In this document: piece after piece, positions 6,155 to 10,437 of the stretch
How positions within the stretch are numbered: the first letter of the stretch is position 1
How the letters are laid out: the number at the start of each line of letters is the position of its first letter
NCBI GenBank assembly: GCA_001856825.1
Contig: ATMD01000001.1
Coordinates: 389,078-453,077 of the forward strand
Direction: 5' to 3'
Source: Thermoplasmatales archaeon I-plasma
Lineage (GTDB): Archaea > Thermoplasmatota > Thermoplasmata > Thermoplasmatales > GCA-001856825
DNA: 64,000 nt
Program-made: the position numbers and the translations under genes
The notes under the pieces: generated by a model
The model's database searches: none
Told to the model about the DNA's origin: nothing
The model's input: only the letters and a program-made list of their open reading frames with translations

Positions 6155-6923
6155 ATGAAAGCGTGCGTCCTAACGATCGGAAATGAAATACTTAAAGGAA
6201 AGACAGTGAATACAAACGCAGCAGAGATTGGTAGAATGCTTTACTTTGCTGGATATGAGGTGTATCGAGGACTTGTTGTTCCGGACGTAAAAGAGGAGAT
6301 CGGTCAGGCCTTCAGGTCCCTTGTAGGCATCTGTGATGTAATCGTGTCGACAGGAGGCCTTGGACCAACTTTCGATGATATGACCATATCGTCATTTGCA
6401 GATGAATTCAACATCCCTTTGGAATTGAATGAGGATGTTTACAAGGAGATAAGAGCTAGGACGGAAAGGAGCGGAATGGAAATGACGAAGGAACGTGAAA
6501 AGATGGCTCTAGTCCCCAAAGGGTTCAATAATACTGAAGAACGACGTAGGGACTGCTCCTGGTATTGAGTACAAAATGGGGTCCACACGTATCTTTCTTA
6601 CTCCAGGTGTCCCATCTGAAATGAGGTCTATGCTGAGTTTGATAGAGAGAGAAATTAAGCTTAAGGACAGTTTCTATTTCGAAGACTCAGTAGTTATAGT
6701 GGGGATCTATGAGGCTTCGCTGGCTCCATACATCACGAAGCTCATGAACGAATACGGTGGTACTGTGTACATAAAGTCGCACCCTAGTATTAAAGATGGG
6801 AGGGAATCATCACTTGAAGTAGAAGTGTCTGCAAAGTCTGATACCTTGGATAACTCAAGGAGGGTAGTTCTAGAAGTGCTGGATAAGATAAGATCAATAG
6901 AACGAGAAATAAAGTCTCATTGA
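6155..6923 (+). CDS. CinA-like molybdopterin-binding (MocF) domain protein, frameshifted
   Basis: IGNEILKG..VNTN, TGGLGPTFDDMT, PGVPSEM, YIKSHP. One extra base in CCCCAAAGGG at 6514-6523 breaks the expected PKGS..N.VGTAPG. Confidence 0.85.
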
Positions 6924-7018: not shown

Positions 7019-7453
7019 TCACACATCATCCGGGACATCATAGTTGCAGTATACGTCTTCGTCTTTATTTGTTTCAAGCAAGGAGATAGCCCTATCAATT
7101 AATATCAACTTTCTTCCTGTCACCACTGAATCAATGGTCTCCTCATTTTCGGAAATTGCACTTGCAAGTATGGAATATCTCTTTTTCTCCAATTCACTTA
7201 TTAGTACAGACTTGGCTCTGTCTTTTGCCGTTTCAAAGTCATTACCTGCAGTTACCTTCTTTATATACAAGAGGTATAGCAGGTTAGAGAAGAAAATGTC
7301 CCTAGCTACTTCAAAATACCCATTGGTCTTCTTCGAGAACTCTATGCTATGCAACGATATTAGTAGCCTAGAATCTTCATCGCTCGGGTAGATCCCCTTT
7401 CTATATTCCTTCATTAATCTCTCTTTTGAAGCTAATTCCTGAGACGTTGTCAT
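7019..7453 (-). CDS. Hypothetical protein (144 aa, helical, acidic C-terminus)
   Basis: Long ORF in AT-rich DNA; GGAGGGG RBS at the end of the upstream ORF, 1-nt gap. Confidence 0.65.
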   Translation of the reverse strand: MTTSQELASKERLMKEYRKGIYPSDEDSRLLISLHSIEFSKKTNGYFEVARDIFFSNLLYLLYIKKVTAGNDFETAKDRAKSVLISELEKKRYSILASAISENEETIDSVVTGRKLILIDRAISLLETNKDEDVYCNYDVPDDV

Positions 7454-7454
7454 T

Positions 7455-7877
7455 TCAAATTGCCCCTCCTTTTCCTTTAAGTGACATTATTTCACCAAAA
7501 ATATTAAAATTTTTATCAAACTCAAAAATGGAATTTTGTCTAGACAATGAATTATTCGGTATTCCTAATGTCAGTTTAGATTTTAAATCCCATTTATCGG
7601 CTAAACCGAGAATATCATATCCTTTACTGCCGGTGAACCAGTTCAACGTTGTAACTGACAGTCCAACTTTGTCGGCTCTGCAAGGAGAAGAGAGGCTATT
7701 GTAGGGGGCAGGCTCCTCAACTGAAGAGGGGGATACATTCTTCAGGGGGAATCCCTTCCTCTGCCACAGCCAATTTTCTCCAGCTTCCGATATGTCATCG
7801 CCGTTTACCGATATTACGAAGTACTGTGAAGGGTTACTTCGCATCGCCCACACAGGACTTGTATATTCAGTTTTCAT
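7455..7877 (-). CDS. Hypothetical protein (about 140 aa)
   Basis: Long ORF, coupled to 7019-7453; ATG at 7877 preferred; no recognised motif. Confidence 0.55.
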   Translation of the reverse strand: MKTEYTSPVWAMRSNPSQYFVISVNGDDISEAGENWLWQRKGFPLKNVSPSSVEEPAPYNSLSSPCRADKVGLSVTTLNWFTGSKGYDILGLADKWDLKSKLTLGIPNNSLSRQNSIFEFDKNFNIFGEIMSLKGKGGAI

Positions 7878-7922
7878 TTTATTTCCAATCAAGTAATCGA
7901 TGGGGGGTATTCAATAGTATGA

Positions 7923-7949
7923 TAAAGTTAGAAAATTTTTCTAACTTTA
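7923..7949. promoter_or_regulatory. Perfect 27-bp palindrome TAAAGTTAGAAAA-T-TTTTCTAACTTTA, putative operator
   Basis: 13-bp perfect inverted arms, centred at 7936 between divergent starts at 7877 and 7997. Confidence 0.7.
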
Positions 7950-7996
7950 CAGTAGTATCGAAATACCAGTTAATTATAGAATCTCGGGGGATTAGA

Positions 7997-8092
7997 ATGT
8001 TTGACATAATTGCAATGGTGCTTTCCCTAAGTGCATTCACTTTCTTCGCAATTGTGAAGTCACTTGGTGGAGCCTTTATGGGAAGCGGATAG
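7997..8092 (+). CDS. Small hydrophobic peptide, 31 aa (MFDIIAMVLSLSAFTFFAIVKSLGGAFMGSG)
   Basis: ATG preceded by GGGGGA (7986-7991) and a TATA-like TAATTATA (7971-7978); one hydrophobic helix plus a Gly-rich tail. Confidence 0.55.
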   Translation: MFDIIAMVLSLSAFTFFAIVKSLGGAFMGSG

Positions 8093-8116
8093 GCATATAT
8101 TGCCCTTTTAATCTAC

Positions 8117-8142
8117 TTTCTAACTTTTTTATACTTTATATT
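8117..8142 (+). promoter_or_regulatory. Operator half-site TTTCTAACTTT abutting TATA-like boxes upstream of 8154
   Basis: 11-bp identity to the right arm of the 7923-7949 palindrome, followed by TTTATA twice. Confidence 0.5.
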
Positions 8143-8153
8143 ATTCCAACATA

Positions 8154-9110
8154 ATGGTTTTAGGTCAGAAGGAAGGCGTCTGTCCCGTTTGCGGAGAAAA
8201 GGCGAAGGTTACAAACAAATGGGTCTTGAATAGGTATGGGAAGCGCTATGATTATTTTCTGTACCATCACGATGGATTTATCCATTATTCAAACCAAAAT
8301 TTTAGAAATTCAAAATATTTCCGTAAGGGCCAATTGGAAAATATACTTATAGAAACAATTAACTCTCAAGATTTCAAATTAGGCTCCTTCAGAATAAATG
8401 ACCTAAGAAATATTCTCGTCAAAGATTACCCAGAGGTTGGGTTCAGTTCGATTAAGGTTAGTTTAAATAGACTTGCGTTGGTTGGCATTATAGAGAAGCA
8501 GAAGAAGGGAAGAAGCCTATTCTACGTTAACACAGTTTCCAAAGAAAGGCTCAGCTATATAATCGAGAGCATTAATGTGTCACTTGATGATGTAAATGAT
8601 GATAATATGTTCACGAGGCATTTATTTTATTATAAGATTAGAAATGATCACTCTTGGCCATTATTTTATGTTCCTTTTAGGGCAGTAGGGGATGTAGAAG
8701 CAGAGTTTGAAAATTTATTAATGAAAGCAAAAGATCCTACTAGCTCTAAGGACATAAGGTTGATGGTAATAGAAGATACTGATAATGATAAGCGGATTTT
8801 GTTAAAACTACCCACACCGTTACTTCCAAATGAAGATAGGAAAATTGCTATAGAATACCAATGGCCCGAGCCGAAACAGCTGTTTGTATATTCATCAGCT
8901 ACTAAAATGAATAATTTCAACTTTTCAATCTCAGGTAATAGACCAATAAAGCTTAGCGTCTCTCTAACTAGCGCATCTAGAAACGAGACCCTTGACCTAA
9001 CGAAGGAAGTTAGTGAAAGTTCTTCAGAGAATAGGAAATATATCTGTAGCATTGTACTAAAAGACGTAGAACCATTTTCAGTACTTCAGTTAAGGTGGAA
9101 GCAAAATTGA
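8154..9110 (+). CDS. Putative DNA-binding protein: Zn-finger (CPVC...HH.GFIH), winged helix, beta-rich C-terminal domain
   Basis: CxxC plus His pair; central wHTH-like SIKVSLNRLALVGIIEKQKKGRSLFY; alternating beta-strand pattern ending LQLRW. Confidence 0.75.
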   Translation: MVLGQKEGVCPVCGEKAKVTNKWVLNRYGKRYDYFLYHHDGFIHYSNQNFRNSKYFRKGQLENILIETINSQDFKLGSFRINDLRNILVKDYPEVGFSSIKVSLNRLALVGIIEKQKKGRSLFYVNTVSKERLSYIIESINVSLDDVNDDNMFTRHLFYYKIRNDHSWPLFYVPFRAVGDVEAEFENLLMKAKDPTSSKDIRLMVIEDTDNDKRILLKLPTPLLPNEDRKIAIEYQWPEPKQLFVYSSATKMNNFNFSISGNRPIKLSVSLTSASRNETLDLTKEVSESSSENRKYICSIVLKDVEPFSVLQLRWKQN

Positions 9111-9169
9111 GATGATGTCTGGCAGAACATACAGAAATTTGAATACCTAAGTATACAATTGTGGATTTA

Positions 9170-10138
9170 ATGGGAAGGAACTCGGTTTTAGAAGTTTGCA
9201 AAGTGTGCGGAAGACAGGCCAAGAAGATAAACTACTCATCAAGAGCAAAAGGAAGGACCTACCGATATTATAAATTCGTTCATCAGAATGGAGTGACGCA
9301 CTATTTTAGAATAAGTGATGACCTAATCTCACAAAATGCACATTTAATTGAACCTAGTACATCCTACCTTGGCTTACTTGAAGACATATTGAATAAGAGT
9401 GTGCCCGGGAAGGGATTAACTTTCTCAGAAATTAAATCTGCACTCGATGAAAGGTATGGACGATTGGTTAGCACTGCCACTGTTTACAGAAATATTAATA
9501 AAATGCTGAAACTTGATTTGATAATCAAGCAGGAAGATGGAAATAAGATACTTTATAGTAAGAAAACTCAGTCAAATTCTACAGAAGGTACTATAATAGT
9601 TAGTATGTCAATAGGTTTTGATTTTACAGAAGGAACGGTATTTGTGACCCAATTTATTCACATTAATAATCTTGGGCTTCAGTTGATTAATAATTTTCCT
9701 GTATCTCTGCCGGTAGGAGTGATTGATTCTCCAGGCCAAATTAGCTTGATTGCATTTGACAGTATTAGAAAAATTCCTCTCAAAAAGGAATGTATTACAT
9801 ATTCCTATGCCGACCAAACAGGAATTTTAATTACCCTAAATAAGGCATTACGAAAGTCTGAAGAAGAAACAATTTTTCTACATTATAGTTTAAATTCAGA
9901 AGAAAGGCCTATTAACATTTTCGTGCCGTCTGATTTCAAATCTATAAAAGTTAATTGCGAAATCGATAAGGGGAAGGATATTTTGATAAAGAAAAAATTG
10001 GGAGATGGACTTAAAGAAATAGAACCGGTGCTTGTGAGAAGAACCGGAACAGATTTAGGGCACGTTATTGTGGAAGCAGAGTTCGAGAACACTTTCAGAG
10101 GGGACACTCTAGTCATAGCACATGGCAAATCTATGTAG
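9170..10138 (+). CDS. Paralogous Zn-finger/winged-helix/beta-domain protein
   Basis: CKVC...YRYYKFVHQNGVTHY; ATVYRNINKMLKLDLIIKQEDGNKILY (Fur/ArsR-like wHTH); same architecture as 8154-9110; alternative GTG start at 9161. Confidence 0.75.
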   Translation: MGRNSVLEVCKVCGRQAKKINYSSRAKGRTYRYYKFVHQNGVTHYFRISDDLISQNAHLIEPSTSYLGLLEDILNKSVPGKGLTFSEIKSALDERYGRLVSTATVYRNINKMLKLDLIIKQEDGNKILYSKKTQSNSTEGTIIVSMSIGFDFTEGTVFVTQFIHINNLGLQLINNFPVSLPVGVIDSPGQISLIAFDSIRKIPLKKECITYSYADQTGILITLNKALRKSEEETIFLHYSLNSEERPINIFVPSDFKSIKVNCEIDKGKDILIKKKLGDGLKEIEPVLVRRTGTDLGHVIVEAEFENTFRGDTLVIAHGKSM

Positions 10139-10167
10139 CAATTAAAGTCAATGACACTTATAATAAG

Positions 10168-10242
10168 CGCCCGAGCTGGGATTCGAACCCAGGTCTGAGG
10201 CTCCGCAGGCCTCTAGGATAATCCAAACTACCCCACTCGGGC
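10168..10242 (-). tRNA. tRNA-Arg(GCG)
   Basis: Cloverleaf GCCCGAG...CTCGGGCG, anticodon arm GAGGC-CT-GCG-GA-GCCTC, TTCGAAT loop; no intron or CCA. Confidence 0.97.
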
Positions 10243-10437
10243 TTATAGGCTTTCAGAAACTCTCTCTAGAAAGATTATAGATTCTAGAAATTCATTTAAA
10301 GTCTTTCTAACATCGTTCGCATTGCCATTCACGGAACACATGAACCCATTCCTCGTCTTCCTGCAACTTATGTACTTGCTGTGGTCCGCCTTTAAGGCCC
10401 GGATTATGTTGTCAGATCCGGCACCACTAATTTTCAA
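10243..10437 (-). CDS. KEOPS complex subunit Pcc1-like small protein
   Basis: 64 aa; I.RALK.D and VRKTLNEFLESI resemble the Pcc1 pattern (LRAxxNSxL). Confidence 0.55.
   Translation of the reverse strand: MKISGAGSDNIIRALKADHSKYISCRKTRNGFMCSVNGNANDVRKTLNEFLESIIFLERVSESL

What the first reader, a model, noticed from the sequence alone, without database searches (positions are those of the whole stretch)
8154..10138. Tandem paralogues with an unusual Zn-finger + winged helix + beta-sandwich architecture
Seen: both proteins (318 and about 322 aa) share C-x2-C, a basic G[KR].Y.Y hairpin and H-x4/5-H-Y. Each then has a wHTH and about 180 aa of beta-rich sequence with matching landmarks (I.N, [KR]D/FD, L..[PA]L...E.....L/I.Y). 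They are otherwise highly diverged, implying an old duplication. Inference: two DNA-binding modules plus a ligand- or peptide-sensing domain, possibly acting as a heterodimer or an activator/repressor pair. The N-terminal module is reminiscent of small beta-sheet DNA-binding domains of archaeal mobile elements.
Basis: partly seen in the sequence, partly recalled or inferred. Interest (0 to 1): 0.7.

Follow-up and report, generated by a model that had tools for sequence, protein, structure and literature searches.

The report
Paired archaeal regulators with small peptide
Two neighbouring, anciently duplicated genes of an acid-loving archaeon encode probable DNA-binding regulators built from a zinc module, a winged helix and an unnamed beta-sandwich domain, and they travel together with a tiny membrane-peptide gene and a palindromic DNA site.

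Summary
A (8154-9110, 318 aa) and B (9170-10138, 322 aa) are diverged paralogues (24% identity over the first ~150 aa; profile-profile E 9.7e-13). AlphaFold models (pLDDT 81 and 80) both show a four-stranded CxxC...HxnH zinc-ribbon-like module, a winged helix (Z 9-10 to Fur, MecI) and a ~185-aa beta-sandwich of the M1-aminopeptidase-N / ribophorin-I fold (Z 14.2 and 13.0).

No Pfam or NCBIfam model reaches threshold. The full architecture was found in only one Thermoplasmata family (21 of 26 genomes), always as an A-then-B pair, with one to four pairs per genome.

- The unit has three genes. A 31-codon gene for a hydrophobic, Gly-tailed peptide precedes A in 15 of 19 loci.
- A perfect 25-bp palindrome (7924-7948) lies upstream. 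Its core occurs only twice in the 1.69-Mb genome, once before each of the two pairs.
- The beta-sandwich is an unnamed domain family that is also fused to class III nucleotide cyclases, a caspase and TPR repeats, mostly in Nitrososphaerota.

My reading is a pair of autoregulated one-component-type transcription regulators whose beta-sandwich is the sensing or dimerising input. Heterodimer formation and peptide binding remain untested.

The parts
7924..7948 (.). Perfect 12+1+12 bp palindrome (AAAGTTAGAAAA-T-TTTTCTAACTTT). Candidate operator in the 104-bp divergent intergenic region.
   Evidence: Read from the sequence. The core TTAGAA-N5-TTCTAA has only 2 sites in the 1.69-Mb genome, each ~220 bp upstream of one of the two A genes; the control pattern has 1 site. 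It is conserved in 10 of 11 aligned upstream regions from paralogue groups whose A proteins are ~42% identical, and the 11th (G203 pair 2) keeps only the outer GTTAG/CTAAC. One lineage has changed both arms to TTCGAA.
7952..7967 (+). Conserved A/T-rich block (GTAGTATCGAAATACC), promoter/TATA-like, upstream of the peptide gene.
   Evidence: Conserved columns in the alignment of 11 upstream regions. Promoter function is inferred.
7986..7991 (+). G-rich Shine-Dalgarno-like element (GGGGGA), 6 nt before the peptide ATG.
   Evidence: A G-rich element was scored present in the 16 nt before the peptide ATG in 11 of the 15 peptide-bearing loci.
7997..8092 (+). sP: 31-codon ORF for a small peptide with one hydrophobic helix and a Gly-rich C-terminal tail.
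   Evidence: A peptide of this type (30-37 aa, hydrophobic helix, tail ending in GG..GG(G) or S[FL]GN) lies upstream of A in 15 of 19 distinct loci, with the frame kept throughout. There is a single copy in the genome. No Pfam or NCBIfam match.
8117..8134 (+). Half-site TTTCTAACT (8117-8125) abutting a TATA-like box TTTTTTATAC (8125-8134), about 24 nt before the A start codon. Probable promoter of a leaderless A(-B) transcript.
   Evidence: TTTCTAACT occurs 4 times in the 64-kb window against 1.09 expected, and 3 of the 4 lie within 7926-8125. TTCTAA sits 25-36 nt upstream of A in 10 of 19 loci, and at -30/-31 in three more, two of which also carry a copy at -51. Promoter function is inferred.
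8154..9110 (+). Gene A, 318 aa. Zn-ribbon-like beta module aa 6-46 (8169-8291), wHTH aa 57-132 (8322-8549), beta-sandwich aa 133-318 (8550-9107).
   Evidence: ORF. AF2 pLDDT 80.9. wHTH Z 9.0-9.6 to Fur/PerR; beta domain Z 14.2, rmsd 2.6 Å over 164 aa, to ribophorin I chain 6s7o_E. 33 homologues.
9170..10138 (+). Gene B, 322 aa (alternative GTG start at 9161). Zn-ribbon-like module aa 6-48 (9185-9313), wHTH aa 63-135 (9356-9574), beta-sandwich aa 140-321 (9587-10132).
   Evidence: ORF. AF2 pLDDT 80.0. wHTH Z ~10 to histone H5 globular domain, Fur and MecI; beta domain Z 13.0 to 6s7o_E. 17 homologues.

Best explanation
Window 7924-10138 holds a lineage-specific cassette of three genes: sP, A and B.

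I read A and B as paralogous one-component-type transcription regulators. Each has three parts:
- The winged helix is the DNA-binding output.
- The N-terminal CxxC...HxnH four-stranded module is a structural zinc ribbon-like element. Zinc binding is inferred.
- The C-terminal ~185-aa beta-sandwich (M1-aminopeptidase-N / ribophorin-I fold) is the input and/or dimerisation domain.

The most likely DNA targets are the 25-bp palindrome at 7924-7948 and the TTTCTAACT half-site beside the TATA-like box of A. This would make the cassette autoregulated. It may also control the divergent genes at 7019-7892.

The same beta-sandwich family is fused to class III nucleotide cyclase and caspase domains in other archaea. 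Those outputs, like a wHTH on a palindrome, work as dimers (general knowledge). I therefore infer that the domain switches the output by signal-dependent self-association.

The small membrane peptide sP has a Gly-rich tail. The charge pattern flanking its helix predicts that the tail is cytoplasmic. sP is the best candidate for the signal or membrane anchor that the domain recognises.

Shown here: the architecture, the homology, the conserved gene order, the conserved cis elements and the phyletic range. Inferred: DNA binding, autoregulation, sensing, and any A-B or sP contact.
For: wHTH:
- Both models show it, with Z 9-10 to the DNA-binding domains of Fur, PerR, MecI and RosR.
- Sequence hits are sub-threshold: Penicillinase_R, FUR and HTH_20 in Pfam, and BlaI at E 0.0034 by sequence against the PDB.

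Zn ligand set:
- C10/C13 are at least 90% conserved and H39/H44 are invariant across the 32 A and B sequences.
- They sit at the turns of the predicted strands.

Fixed A-then-B pairing:
- In all 19 distinct pairs found in the fetched loci, B follows A on the same strand within 150 nt.
- The A tree and the B tree recover the same three major clades, so pairs were duplicated as units.

Cis elements:
- The palindrome core has only 2 sites in the genome, both ~220 bp upstream of an A gene.
- It is kept between paralogue groups at ~42% protein identity, while flanking sequence has diverged.
- One lineage has a two-arm change, TTAGAA/TTCTAA to TTCGAA/TTCGAA.
- A TTCTAA half-site abuts the TATA-like box of A.
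- More distant pair types have different recognition helices and different upstream repeats.

sP:
- Present in 15 of 19 upstream regions, 11 of them scored with an SD-like element.

Input-domain argument:
- The profile search found the C-domain alone (profile positions ~130-280) in proteins of other architectures.
- Of 36 of those hits scanned, 20 carry Guanylate_cyc, 1 carries Peptidase_C14 and 2 carry TPR.
- hhalign of the A family against the cyclase fusions gives 98.7% probability, E 1.9e-16, over 137 columns.
- The two groups share the motifs ..HH...W..N and EY.W.EP.
Against: - No experiment or expression data bears on any of the functional claims.
- Winged helices also occur in proteins that are not transcription factors. 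Linker histone H5, cullin, Stn1 and MCM are among the fold matches.
- No Pfam or NCBIfam model reaches its cut-off.
- A symmetric palindrome suits a homodimer better than a heterodimer of two proteins with different recognition helices. The pairing may therefore mean two separate regulators.
- The genome-wide count of the palindrome (2 sites, against 1 for the reversed control) is not in itself an enrichment. The argument rests on position and conservation.
- The palindrome in this form is seen in only 10 of the 19 upstream regions.
- The same sequence could act as an RNA hairpin in a 5' leader. It folds, but with z = -1.70, and 12 of 200 shuffles fold as well.
- sP is missing or degraded at 4 of 19 loci while A and B stay intact. 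This includes the second pair of this very genome. sP is therefore not obligatory.
- No sP-like peptide gene lies next to the cyclase fusions. Only 9 of 74 have any hydrophobic small ORF, and none is of the sP type.
Confidence: 0.55

Rival explanations
1. A and B are two independent homodimeric regulators, for example an activator and a repressor acting on the same control region. They would be kept adjacent only because they share a regulon, not because they form a heterodimer. The beta-sandwich would be only a dimerisation scaffold with no ligand.
For: The operator candidate is a symmetric palindrome, while the recognition helices of A and B differ in every pair type. There are two separate promoter-like boxes, each with a TTCTAAC element.
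Against: A and B have been co-duplicated and have co-diverged as a unit, in 19 of 19 pairs and with matching tree clades. That is more than a shared regulon would require. The C-domain family recurs on signalling outputs in other archaea, which suggests more than a passive scaffold.
Confidence: 0.2
2. The cassette is a selfish or conflict module of toxin-antitoxin type. sP would be a small membrane-damaging peptide, and A/B would be DNA-binding neutralisers that autoregulate the operon.
For: sP looks like a short single-helix hydrophobic peptide. There are one to four copies per genome. Some copies sit next to IS630-like transposase ORFs. An autoregulatory palindrome is typical of such modules (general knowledge). 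C-domain relatives are fused to caspase and cyclase modules, an architecture often seen in conflict systems (general knowledge).
Against: A and B have no significant PADLOC match; the only hit is B to Csx19 at E 0.027. Positions are syntenic across at least seven genomes of the genus. sP has been lost at 4 of 19 loci while A and B remain intact, which is the opposite of what an addiction module predicts. sP is first in the cassette and has its own SD-like element.
Confidence: 0.1
3. A and B are not transcription factors. They would use the wHTH and Zn module for protein or RNA contacts, in a cell-surface or pilus-related process.
For: The second pair in this genome and its orthologues lie between archaeal Pilin_N genes and small membrane proteins on the same strand. 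Other pair types neighbour Ser/Asn-rich secreted or anchored proteins. The closest folds of the C-domain (ribophorin I, M1-N, VIT) belong to proteins that handle peptides or sit outside the cytoplasm.
Against: A and B have no signal peptide or transmembrane segment in their sequences. The pair in the window has no such neighbours. The conserved palindrome and half-site argue for sequence-specific DNA binding. The surface-gene neighbourhood was not tested against a background rate.
Confidence: 0.1

Closest known systems
BlaI/MecI/CopY repressors (Pfam Penicillinase_R, PF03965)
   Same: This is the best sequence-level match to the wHTH: A scores 17.7 bits against a 22.6-bit cut-off, and BlaI 1sd4 gives E 0.0034. 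MecI 1okr gives Z 8.5 with A and 10.1 with B. NCBI names one homologue (P0029) this way. Both are dimeric regulators tied to a membrane component (recalled for BlaI-BlaR1).
   Different: The match is below the family threshold. There is an extra N-terminal Zn module. The C-terminal domain is a 185-aa beta-sandwich rather than a short helical dimerisation domain. No BlaR1-type sensor-protease lies nearby.
Fur/PerR/Zur family (PF01475)
   Same: wHTH fold match at Z 9-10. Sub-threshold Pfam hits of 13.0 and 15.4 bits against a 23.1-bit cut-off. JGI names one homologue (P0032) 'Fe2+ or Zn2+ uptake regulation protein'.
   Different: There is no Fur-type C-terminal metal-binding dimerisation domain. 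The Cys/His ligands here lie in a separate N-terminal beta module.
N-terminal beta domain of M1 aminopeptidases / LTA4 hydrolase, the C-terminal luminal domain of ribophorin I (Ost1), and the VIT domain of ITIH1
   Same: Same fold for the C-domains of both A and B. 6s7o_E gives Z 14.2 (rmsd 2.6 Å, 164 aa) for A and 13.0 for B. 5fwq_A gives 13.1 and 12.6, and 3qnf_A gives 13.0 and 12.3. Foldseek E-values reach 6e-7. Stand-alone relatives give sub-threshold Ribophorin_I (E 1.9e-4) and DUF3857 (E 0.019) hits.
   Different: A and B themselves have no sequence-family match at E up to 10. Here the domain is cytoplasmic and attached to a wHTH, not to a peptidase or a membrane glycosylation complex. 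A shared fold shows no function.
Class III nucleotide cyclase proteins of Nitrososphaerota with an unnamed C-terminal domain (metagenomic, uncharacterised)
   Same: True sequence homologues of the C-domain. hhalign gives 98.7% probability, E 1.9e-16. The hmmsearch E-value reaches 5e-26 among 74 ORFs. Some also occur as tandem pairs (L099, L106).
   Different: The output domain is a cyclase rather than Zn module + wHTH. There is no sP-like peptide gene beside them. They belong to a different phylum: 78 of 79 loci are titled Thaumarchaeota or Nitrososphaerota lineages and 1 is Aenigmatarchaeota.
Regulators controlled by small membrane proteins or membrane sequestration (e.g. Mlc-PtsG, MgrB-PhoQ; recalled, not tested)
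   Same: A conceptual parallel only: a soluble or sensor regulator whose activity depends on contact with a membrane protein encoded with it or controlled by it.
   Different: There is no homology, and no contact between sP and A or B has been shown.

Membership tests
BlaI/MecI/CopY (PF03965) | wHTH matching the family model above the gathering score | tested here: not met
   A scores 17.7 bits and B 12.3 bits against a 22.6-bit cut-off. CopY_TcrY scores 14 bits against 121.95.
BlaI/MecI/CopY (PF03965) | Short helical C-terminal dimerisation domain and a cognate BlaR1/MecR1-type sensor gene | tested here: not met
   The C-terminal 185 aa are all-beta. None of the 14 neighbouring proteins scanned has such a family.
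Fur family (PF01475) | Family model above the gathering score, plus the C-terminal metal-binding dimerisation domain | tested here: not met
   A scores 13.0 bits and B 15.4 bits against a 23.1-bit cut-off. The C-terminal domain has a different fold.
Zinc ribbon | Four metal ligands on two knuckles flanking a small antiparallel beta sheet | tested here: inconclusive
   CxxC plus Hx4-5H are conserved (C10/C13 at least 90%, H39/H44 invariant) and four strands are predicted. Ligand geometry could not be measured. The module was not folded or searched alone. Only knuckle-level hits were found, to Nop10 and L37Ae at E of 0.14 or worse.
Winged helix-turn-helix DNA-binding domain (fold level) | Three helices followed by a beta-hairpin wing, superposing on known DNA-binding wHTH domains | tested here: met
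   A aa 57-132: Z 9.0-9.6, rmsd 1.7-2.6 Å, to Fur/PerR. B aa 63-135: Z ~10 to the H5 globular domain, Fur and MecI.
M1-aminopeptidase-N / ribophorin I beta-sandwich (fold level) | Superposition over most of the domain, with Z well above background | tested here: met
   Z 14.2 for A and 13.0 for B over 164-166 aa to 6s7o_E. Z 12-13 to LTA4H, ERAP1 and the Deinococcus M1 peptidase.
Pfam Peptidase_M1_N / Ribophorin_I (sequence families) | Match to the family HMM | tested here: not met
   The C-domains of A and B scanned alone gave 0 families at E up to 10.
AGS-C sensor domain of cyclases / SMODS | The domain as described for DncV, a mainly alpha-helical structure | tested here: not met
   Passages of PMC7288161 describe AGS-C as mainly alpha-helical, whereas the domain here is all-beta. 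The cyclase fusions gave no AGS_C Pfam hit at E up to 0.01.
One-component transcription regulator | Input domain and DNA-binding output in one cytoplasmic polypeptide, with ligand-dependent DNA binding | tested here: inconclusive
   The architecture fits, and the input-type domain recurs on other outputs. Ligand and DNA binding cannot be tested with these tools.
Known anti-phage defence / toxin-antitoxin systems (PADLOC) | Match to a PADLOC model | tested here: inconclusive
   A had no match. B had only Csx19 at E 0.027. A library blank does not exclude an undescribed system.

The most novel reading that the evidence does not exclude
The C-terminal beta-sandwich defines a previously unnamed archaeal signalling-input domain, a distant relative of the ribophorin-I / M1-N fold. 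Evolution has plugged it into three outputs that work as dimers: wHTH, class III nucleotide cyclase and caspase. In these Thermoplasmata it would read the cytoplasmic Gly-rich tail of a co-encoded 31-aa membrane peptide. The sP-A-B cassette would then be a membrane-peptide-gated pair of transcription factors, a regulatory principle not described in archaea.
Probability: 0.15. Interest if true: 0.75.

Novelty: new variant of a known kind. Interest (0 to 1): 0.5.

Why it matters
Archaeal transcription regulators are mostly bacterial-type one-component systems, and few of their input domains are understood. This family would add three things:
- An unnamed input or dimerisation domain with a clear structural relative (ribophorin I / M1-N), combined with several signalling outputs across two archaeal phyla.
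- A compact cassette that can be tested directly: a peptide gene, two regulators, and a unique palindrome that gives an obvious binding assay.
- A case of obligate co-duplication of a regulator pair.

If the peptide link holds, it would be an entry point to small-protein signalling in archaea. If it does not, this is still a well-delimited new lineage-specific regulator family, of modest general importance.

Tried and rejected
**Steps that gave no usable answer**
- Complex prediction of A (alignment A1) with B (alignment A2) returned 'no answer' (score 0.00, mark 0.32). The controls were not run. This is no evidence either way.
- The look-up of sequencing runs listed no RNA holder of the stretch. 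When three coded metatranscriptome runs were laid on 7700-10300, one 157-nt contig covered 9484-9639 inside B, and one contig of another origin covered the tRNA. This does not establish expression.
- The protein atlas returned only the protein's own unnamed cluster: 55 members, Archaea 75%, commonest phylum Thermoplasmatota.

**Ideas considered and rejected**
- AGS-C identity for the C-domain was rejected, because AGS-C is described as mainly alpha-helical.
- A phage or mobile-element origin was not supported. PHROGs gave nothing better than E 0.02. BFVD hits were only M1-like and ITI-like giant-virus proteins.
- PADLOC gave nothing significant for A or B.
- The low G+C of 8001-10000 (0.349, the lowest 2-kb bin of the window) and the adjacent tRNA-Arg suggested an integrated island. 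I rejected this because the position is syntenic across the genus.
- I tried to tell which paralogue binds the palindrome by comparing recognition helices in the TTCGAA-variant lineage. Both A and B differ there, so the comparison is uninformative.
- RNA-hairpin reading of the palindrome: it folds, but z = -1.70, so it is neither supported nor excluded.

**Searches with nothing relevant**
- An sP-like peptide gene next to the thaumarchaeal cyclase fusions was not found.
- Six literature searches of the held library found no paper on this family or domain. Passages of PMC4158269 and PMC13692203 were not relevant to the family. This library lacks most subscription journals.
- The first genome-contig query, with a 21-sequence alignment, had no stretch conserved enough to search with. 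A 7-sequence alignment was used instead.
Full report
**What is there**

Two same-strand ORFs occupy the stated interval. A is 8154-9110 (318 aa). B is 9161(GTG)/9170(ATG)-10138. The alignment of the B family begins at the ATG in all 18 rows, and the window's own cluster representative is 322 aa, so I take 9170 as the start. The interval is the most A+T-rich 2-kb bin of the window: G+C is 0.349, against 0.38-0.47 elsewhere.

**Are A and B paralogues?**

- BLASTP aligns only the first ~150 residues: 36/149 identical, E 3e-7.
- Profiles built from 34 A-type and 18 B-type sequences align over 234 columns, A 1-240 to B 1-244, with 97.8% probability and E 9.7e-13. Homology therefore reaches well into the C-terminal domain.
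- In a joint alignment of 32 sequences, the only invariant positions are M1, Y32, Y34, H39, H44, Y45 and N164. C10, C13 and L223 are at least 90% conserved.

**Architecture**

AlphaFold2 with these alignments gave mean pLDDT 80.9 for A and 80.0 for B. Both models have three parts.

1. *N-terminal beta module.* Four strands (A 6-46, B 6-48) carry CxxC at the first turn and HxnH at the last. I call it zinc-ribbon-like. It was not folded or searched on its own. Sequence searches gave only knuckle-level similarity to Nop10 and L37Ae (E 0.14 or worse) and a sub-threshold DUF7837 hit.
2. *Winged helix.* It spans A 57-132 and B 63-135. VIA-align gives Z 9.0-9.6 for A against Fur and PerR, and about 10 for B against the H5 globular domain, Fur and MecI.
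3. *All-beta C-terminal domain.* It spans A 133-318 and B 140-321.
   - Its best matches are the C-terminal luminal domain of ribophorin I/Ost1. 6s7o_E gives Z 14.2, rmsd 2.6 Å, 164 aa for A, and Z 13.0 for B.
   - The N-terminal domain of M1-family enzymes follows: LTA4H 13.1/12.6 and ERAP1 13.0/12.3.
   - TAF2 and the VIT domain of ITIH1 also match.
   - Both paralogues hit the same chains over the same ranges, so the shared C-terminal fold is confirmed.

**Is it a named family?**

No.
- Pfam and NCBIfam give only sub-threshold wHTH hits: Penicillinase_R 17.7 bits against 22.6, FUR, HTH_20.
- The C-domains scanned alone give nothing at E up to 10.
- Source annotations of homologues are inconsistent and generic: 'hypothetical protein', 'helix-turn-helix domain-containing protein', 'BlaI/MecI/CopY family', 'Fe2+ or Zn2+ uptake regulation protein'.
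- PADLOC and PHROGs give nothing significant.

**Distribution**

- The word-index search found 33 A-type and 17 B-type proteins. Every one that carries a name comes from Thermoplasmata or Thermoplasmatota MAGs.
- In a sample of 201 genomes of the class, only the window's own genome has full-length matches. The two other 'matches' are 27-aa and 67-aa stretches.
- Within the window's own family, 21 of 26 genomes have matches: genus g1 17 of 18 besides G000, g78 2 of 3, g79 0 of 3, g80 1 of 1. There are one to four pairs per genome.
- The window's genome has a second pair about 10 kb away on the other strand, at C1:384981-386924. A' is 42% identical to A and B' is 29% identical to B.
- The divergent two-pair arrangement recurs in at least seven genomes.
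- In the fetched loci, all 19 distinct A genes are followed by a B gene within 150 nt on the same strand. The A tree and the B tree recover the same three major clades plus two distant pairs. The A/B split is therefore older than the family, and pairs were later duplicated as units.

The 300 bp upstream of A are strikingly conserved across paralogue groups. In the window the order of elements is as follows:
- A perfect 12+1+12 palindrome at 7924-7948.
- A conserved A/T-rich block at 7952-7967.
- A GGGGGA element at 7986-7991.
- A 31-codon ORF (sP) at 7997-8092. It encodes one hydrophobic helix followed by a basic residue and a Gly-rich tail.
- TTTCTAACT at 8117-8125, abutting a TATA-like TTTTTTATAC about 24 nt before the A start.

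Evidence for sP and the cis elements:
- An sP-type ORF (30-37 codons) is present in 15 of 19 distinct upstream regions. It is absent or degraded at 4, including this genome's second pair.
- sP has no Pfam or NCBIfam match and only one copy in the genome.
- The palindrome core TTAGAA-N5-TTCTAA has just two sites in the 1.69-Mb genome, one about 220 bp upstream of each A gene. The reversed control pattern has one site.
- One lineage (G205 and G210) has changed both arms to TTCGAA.
- TTTCTAACT occurs four times in the window against 1.09 expected, and three of those lie in this locus.
- More distant pair types have different recognition helices and different upstream repeats.
- The palindrome lies in the 104-bp gap between sP and the divergent genes 7455-7892 and 7019-7453. 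Relatives of the latter sit in the same divergent position at 8 of 19 pairs.

**What the C-domain is related to**

A profile of A and B was run against 1.84 billion representative proteins. It found 126 proteins at E of 0.001 or better.
- The 40 best (E of 1e-30 or better) match most or all of the profile. Most are 300-346 aa; some are shorter fragments.
- From about E 1e-19 downward, the hits match only profile positions ~130-280 and occur in other architectures.
- I scanned 36 of these hits. 20 carry a class III cyclase domain N-terminal to the match, 1 a caspase domain, 2 TPR repeats, 1 various Ig-like domains, 1 a weak TBPIP wHTH, and 11 nothing.
- Two of the unmatched ones have sub-threshold cyclase hits. 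Stand-alone forms give sub-threshold Ribophorin_I and DUF3857 hits.
- The motifs ..HH...W..N and EY.W.EP are shared with A.
- hhalign of the A family against seven cyclase fusions gives 98.7% probability, E 1.9e-16, over 137 columns.
- In species-representative genomes the cyclase fusions have 258 relatives. Of the 79 loci kept, 78 are titled as Thaumarchaeota or Nitrososphaerota lineages and 1 as Aenigmatarchaeota.
- 74 ORFs in those loci match the A+B profile, down to E 5e-26. Two loci hold tandem pairs.
- The domain is not AGS-C, which is described as mainly alpha-helical (passages of PMC7288161).

**Interpretation**

A domain that recurs C-terminal to a wHTH, a nucleotide cyclase and a caspase behaves like a regulatory input or oligomerisation module. 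All three outputs act as dimers (general knowledge). I therefore read A and B as one-component-type regulators. In this reading the beta-sandwich controls self-association, and the wHTH binds the palindrome and half-site of the cassette itself.

sP is the obvious candidate partner. It has an acidic N-terminus and a basic residue after its helix, which suggests a cytoplasmic tail. However, it is dispensable at some loci and absent from the cyclase loci.

A symmetric palindrome argues for a homodimer at that site, so the heterodimer idea is open rather than favoured. An RNA-hairpin role for the palindrome cannot be excluded.

The main rivals are two independent regulators, a toxin-antitoxin-like module, and a non-transcriptional role tied to surface proteins. 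They are listed with their evidence in the Rival explanations section.

**Verdict**

This is a well-delimited, unnamed, lineage-specific regulator family with a new domain combination. It sits in a three-gene cassette with a candidate operator, and its C-domain links it to an uncharacterised set of archaeal signalling proteins. No function has been demonstrated.

Noticed in passing
G000:C1:384981-386924 (L005 1498-3444, minus strand), about 2-4 kb before the window start: A second A'-B' pair in the same genome. On the same strand it is followed by a 97-aa membrane protein, a 269-aa archaeal Pilin_N protein, a 197-aa multi-pass membrane protein, a small wHTH protein, an Lrp-like protein and a UPF-like protein. 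Another pilin-like gene lies divergently upstream. This order recurs in G203, G205, G206 and G210. Here the sP gene is degraded but the palindrome is kept.
   Followed up: partly
window 7019-7453 (-) and 7455-7892 (-): Two conserved genes of unknown function (144 and 145 aa, no Pfam match) are transcribed divergently from the cassette and share the 104-bp control region with it. Relatives of the 144-aa protein occupy the same divergent position at 8 of 19 A-B pairs, from three paralogue groups. It may be a fourth member or a target of the system.
   Followed up: partly
window 6155-6568 and 6576-6923 (+): The CinA/MoCF_biosynth-like gene is split into 137-aa and 115-aa ORFs here, whereas orthologues in related genomes are single ORFs of 255 aa. 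This could be a frameshift, an in-frame stop, or an assembly error.
   Followed up: no
window 10167-10242 (-): tRNA-Arg(GCG) lies 29 nt downstream of B on the opposite strand. A metatranscriptome contig of another origin matches it with unlike flanks.
   Followed up: partly
L040 9202-10231 and 12708-13409; L042 14180-15195: IS630-like transposase / HTH ORF fragments sit next to two of the extra A-B pairs in genome G205. At L040 they replace the usual sP-bearing upstream region.
   Followed up: no
L041, L042, L046, L048 (extra pairs in G205, G206, G210): The third type of A-B pair is flanked by Ser/Asn-rich proteins with N-terminal signal or anchor segments (212-624 aa), some in several copies. 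This association with surface proteins was not tested against a background rate.
   Followed up: no
L071, L072, L073, L082 (Nitrosotalea and related loci), 40-180 nt upstream of the cyclase fusion gene: A conserved 34-36 codon ORF with a GGGGGNLVA motif and a C-terminal DAWD..L.Y lies just upstream of the cyclase + beta-sandwich gene in four loci. It is unlike sP and not hydrophobic overall.
   Followed up: no
L099 1833-4767 and L106 3971-6904: Tandem pairs of cyclase + beta-sandwich genes in Nitrososphaerota echo the tandem arrangement of A and B.
   Followed up: no
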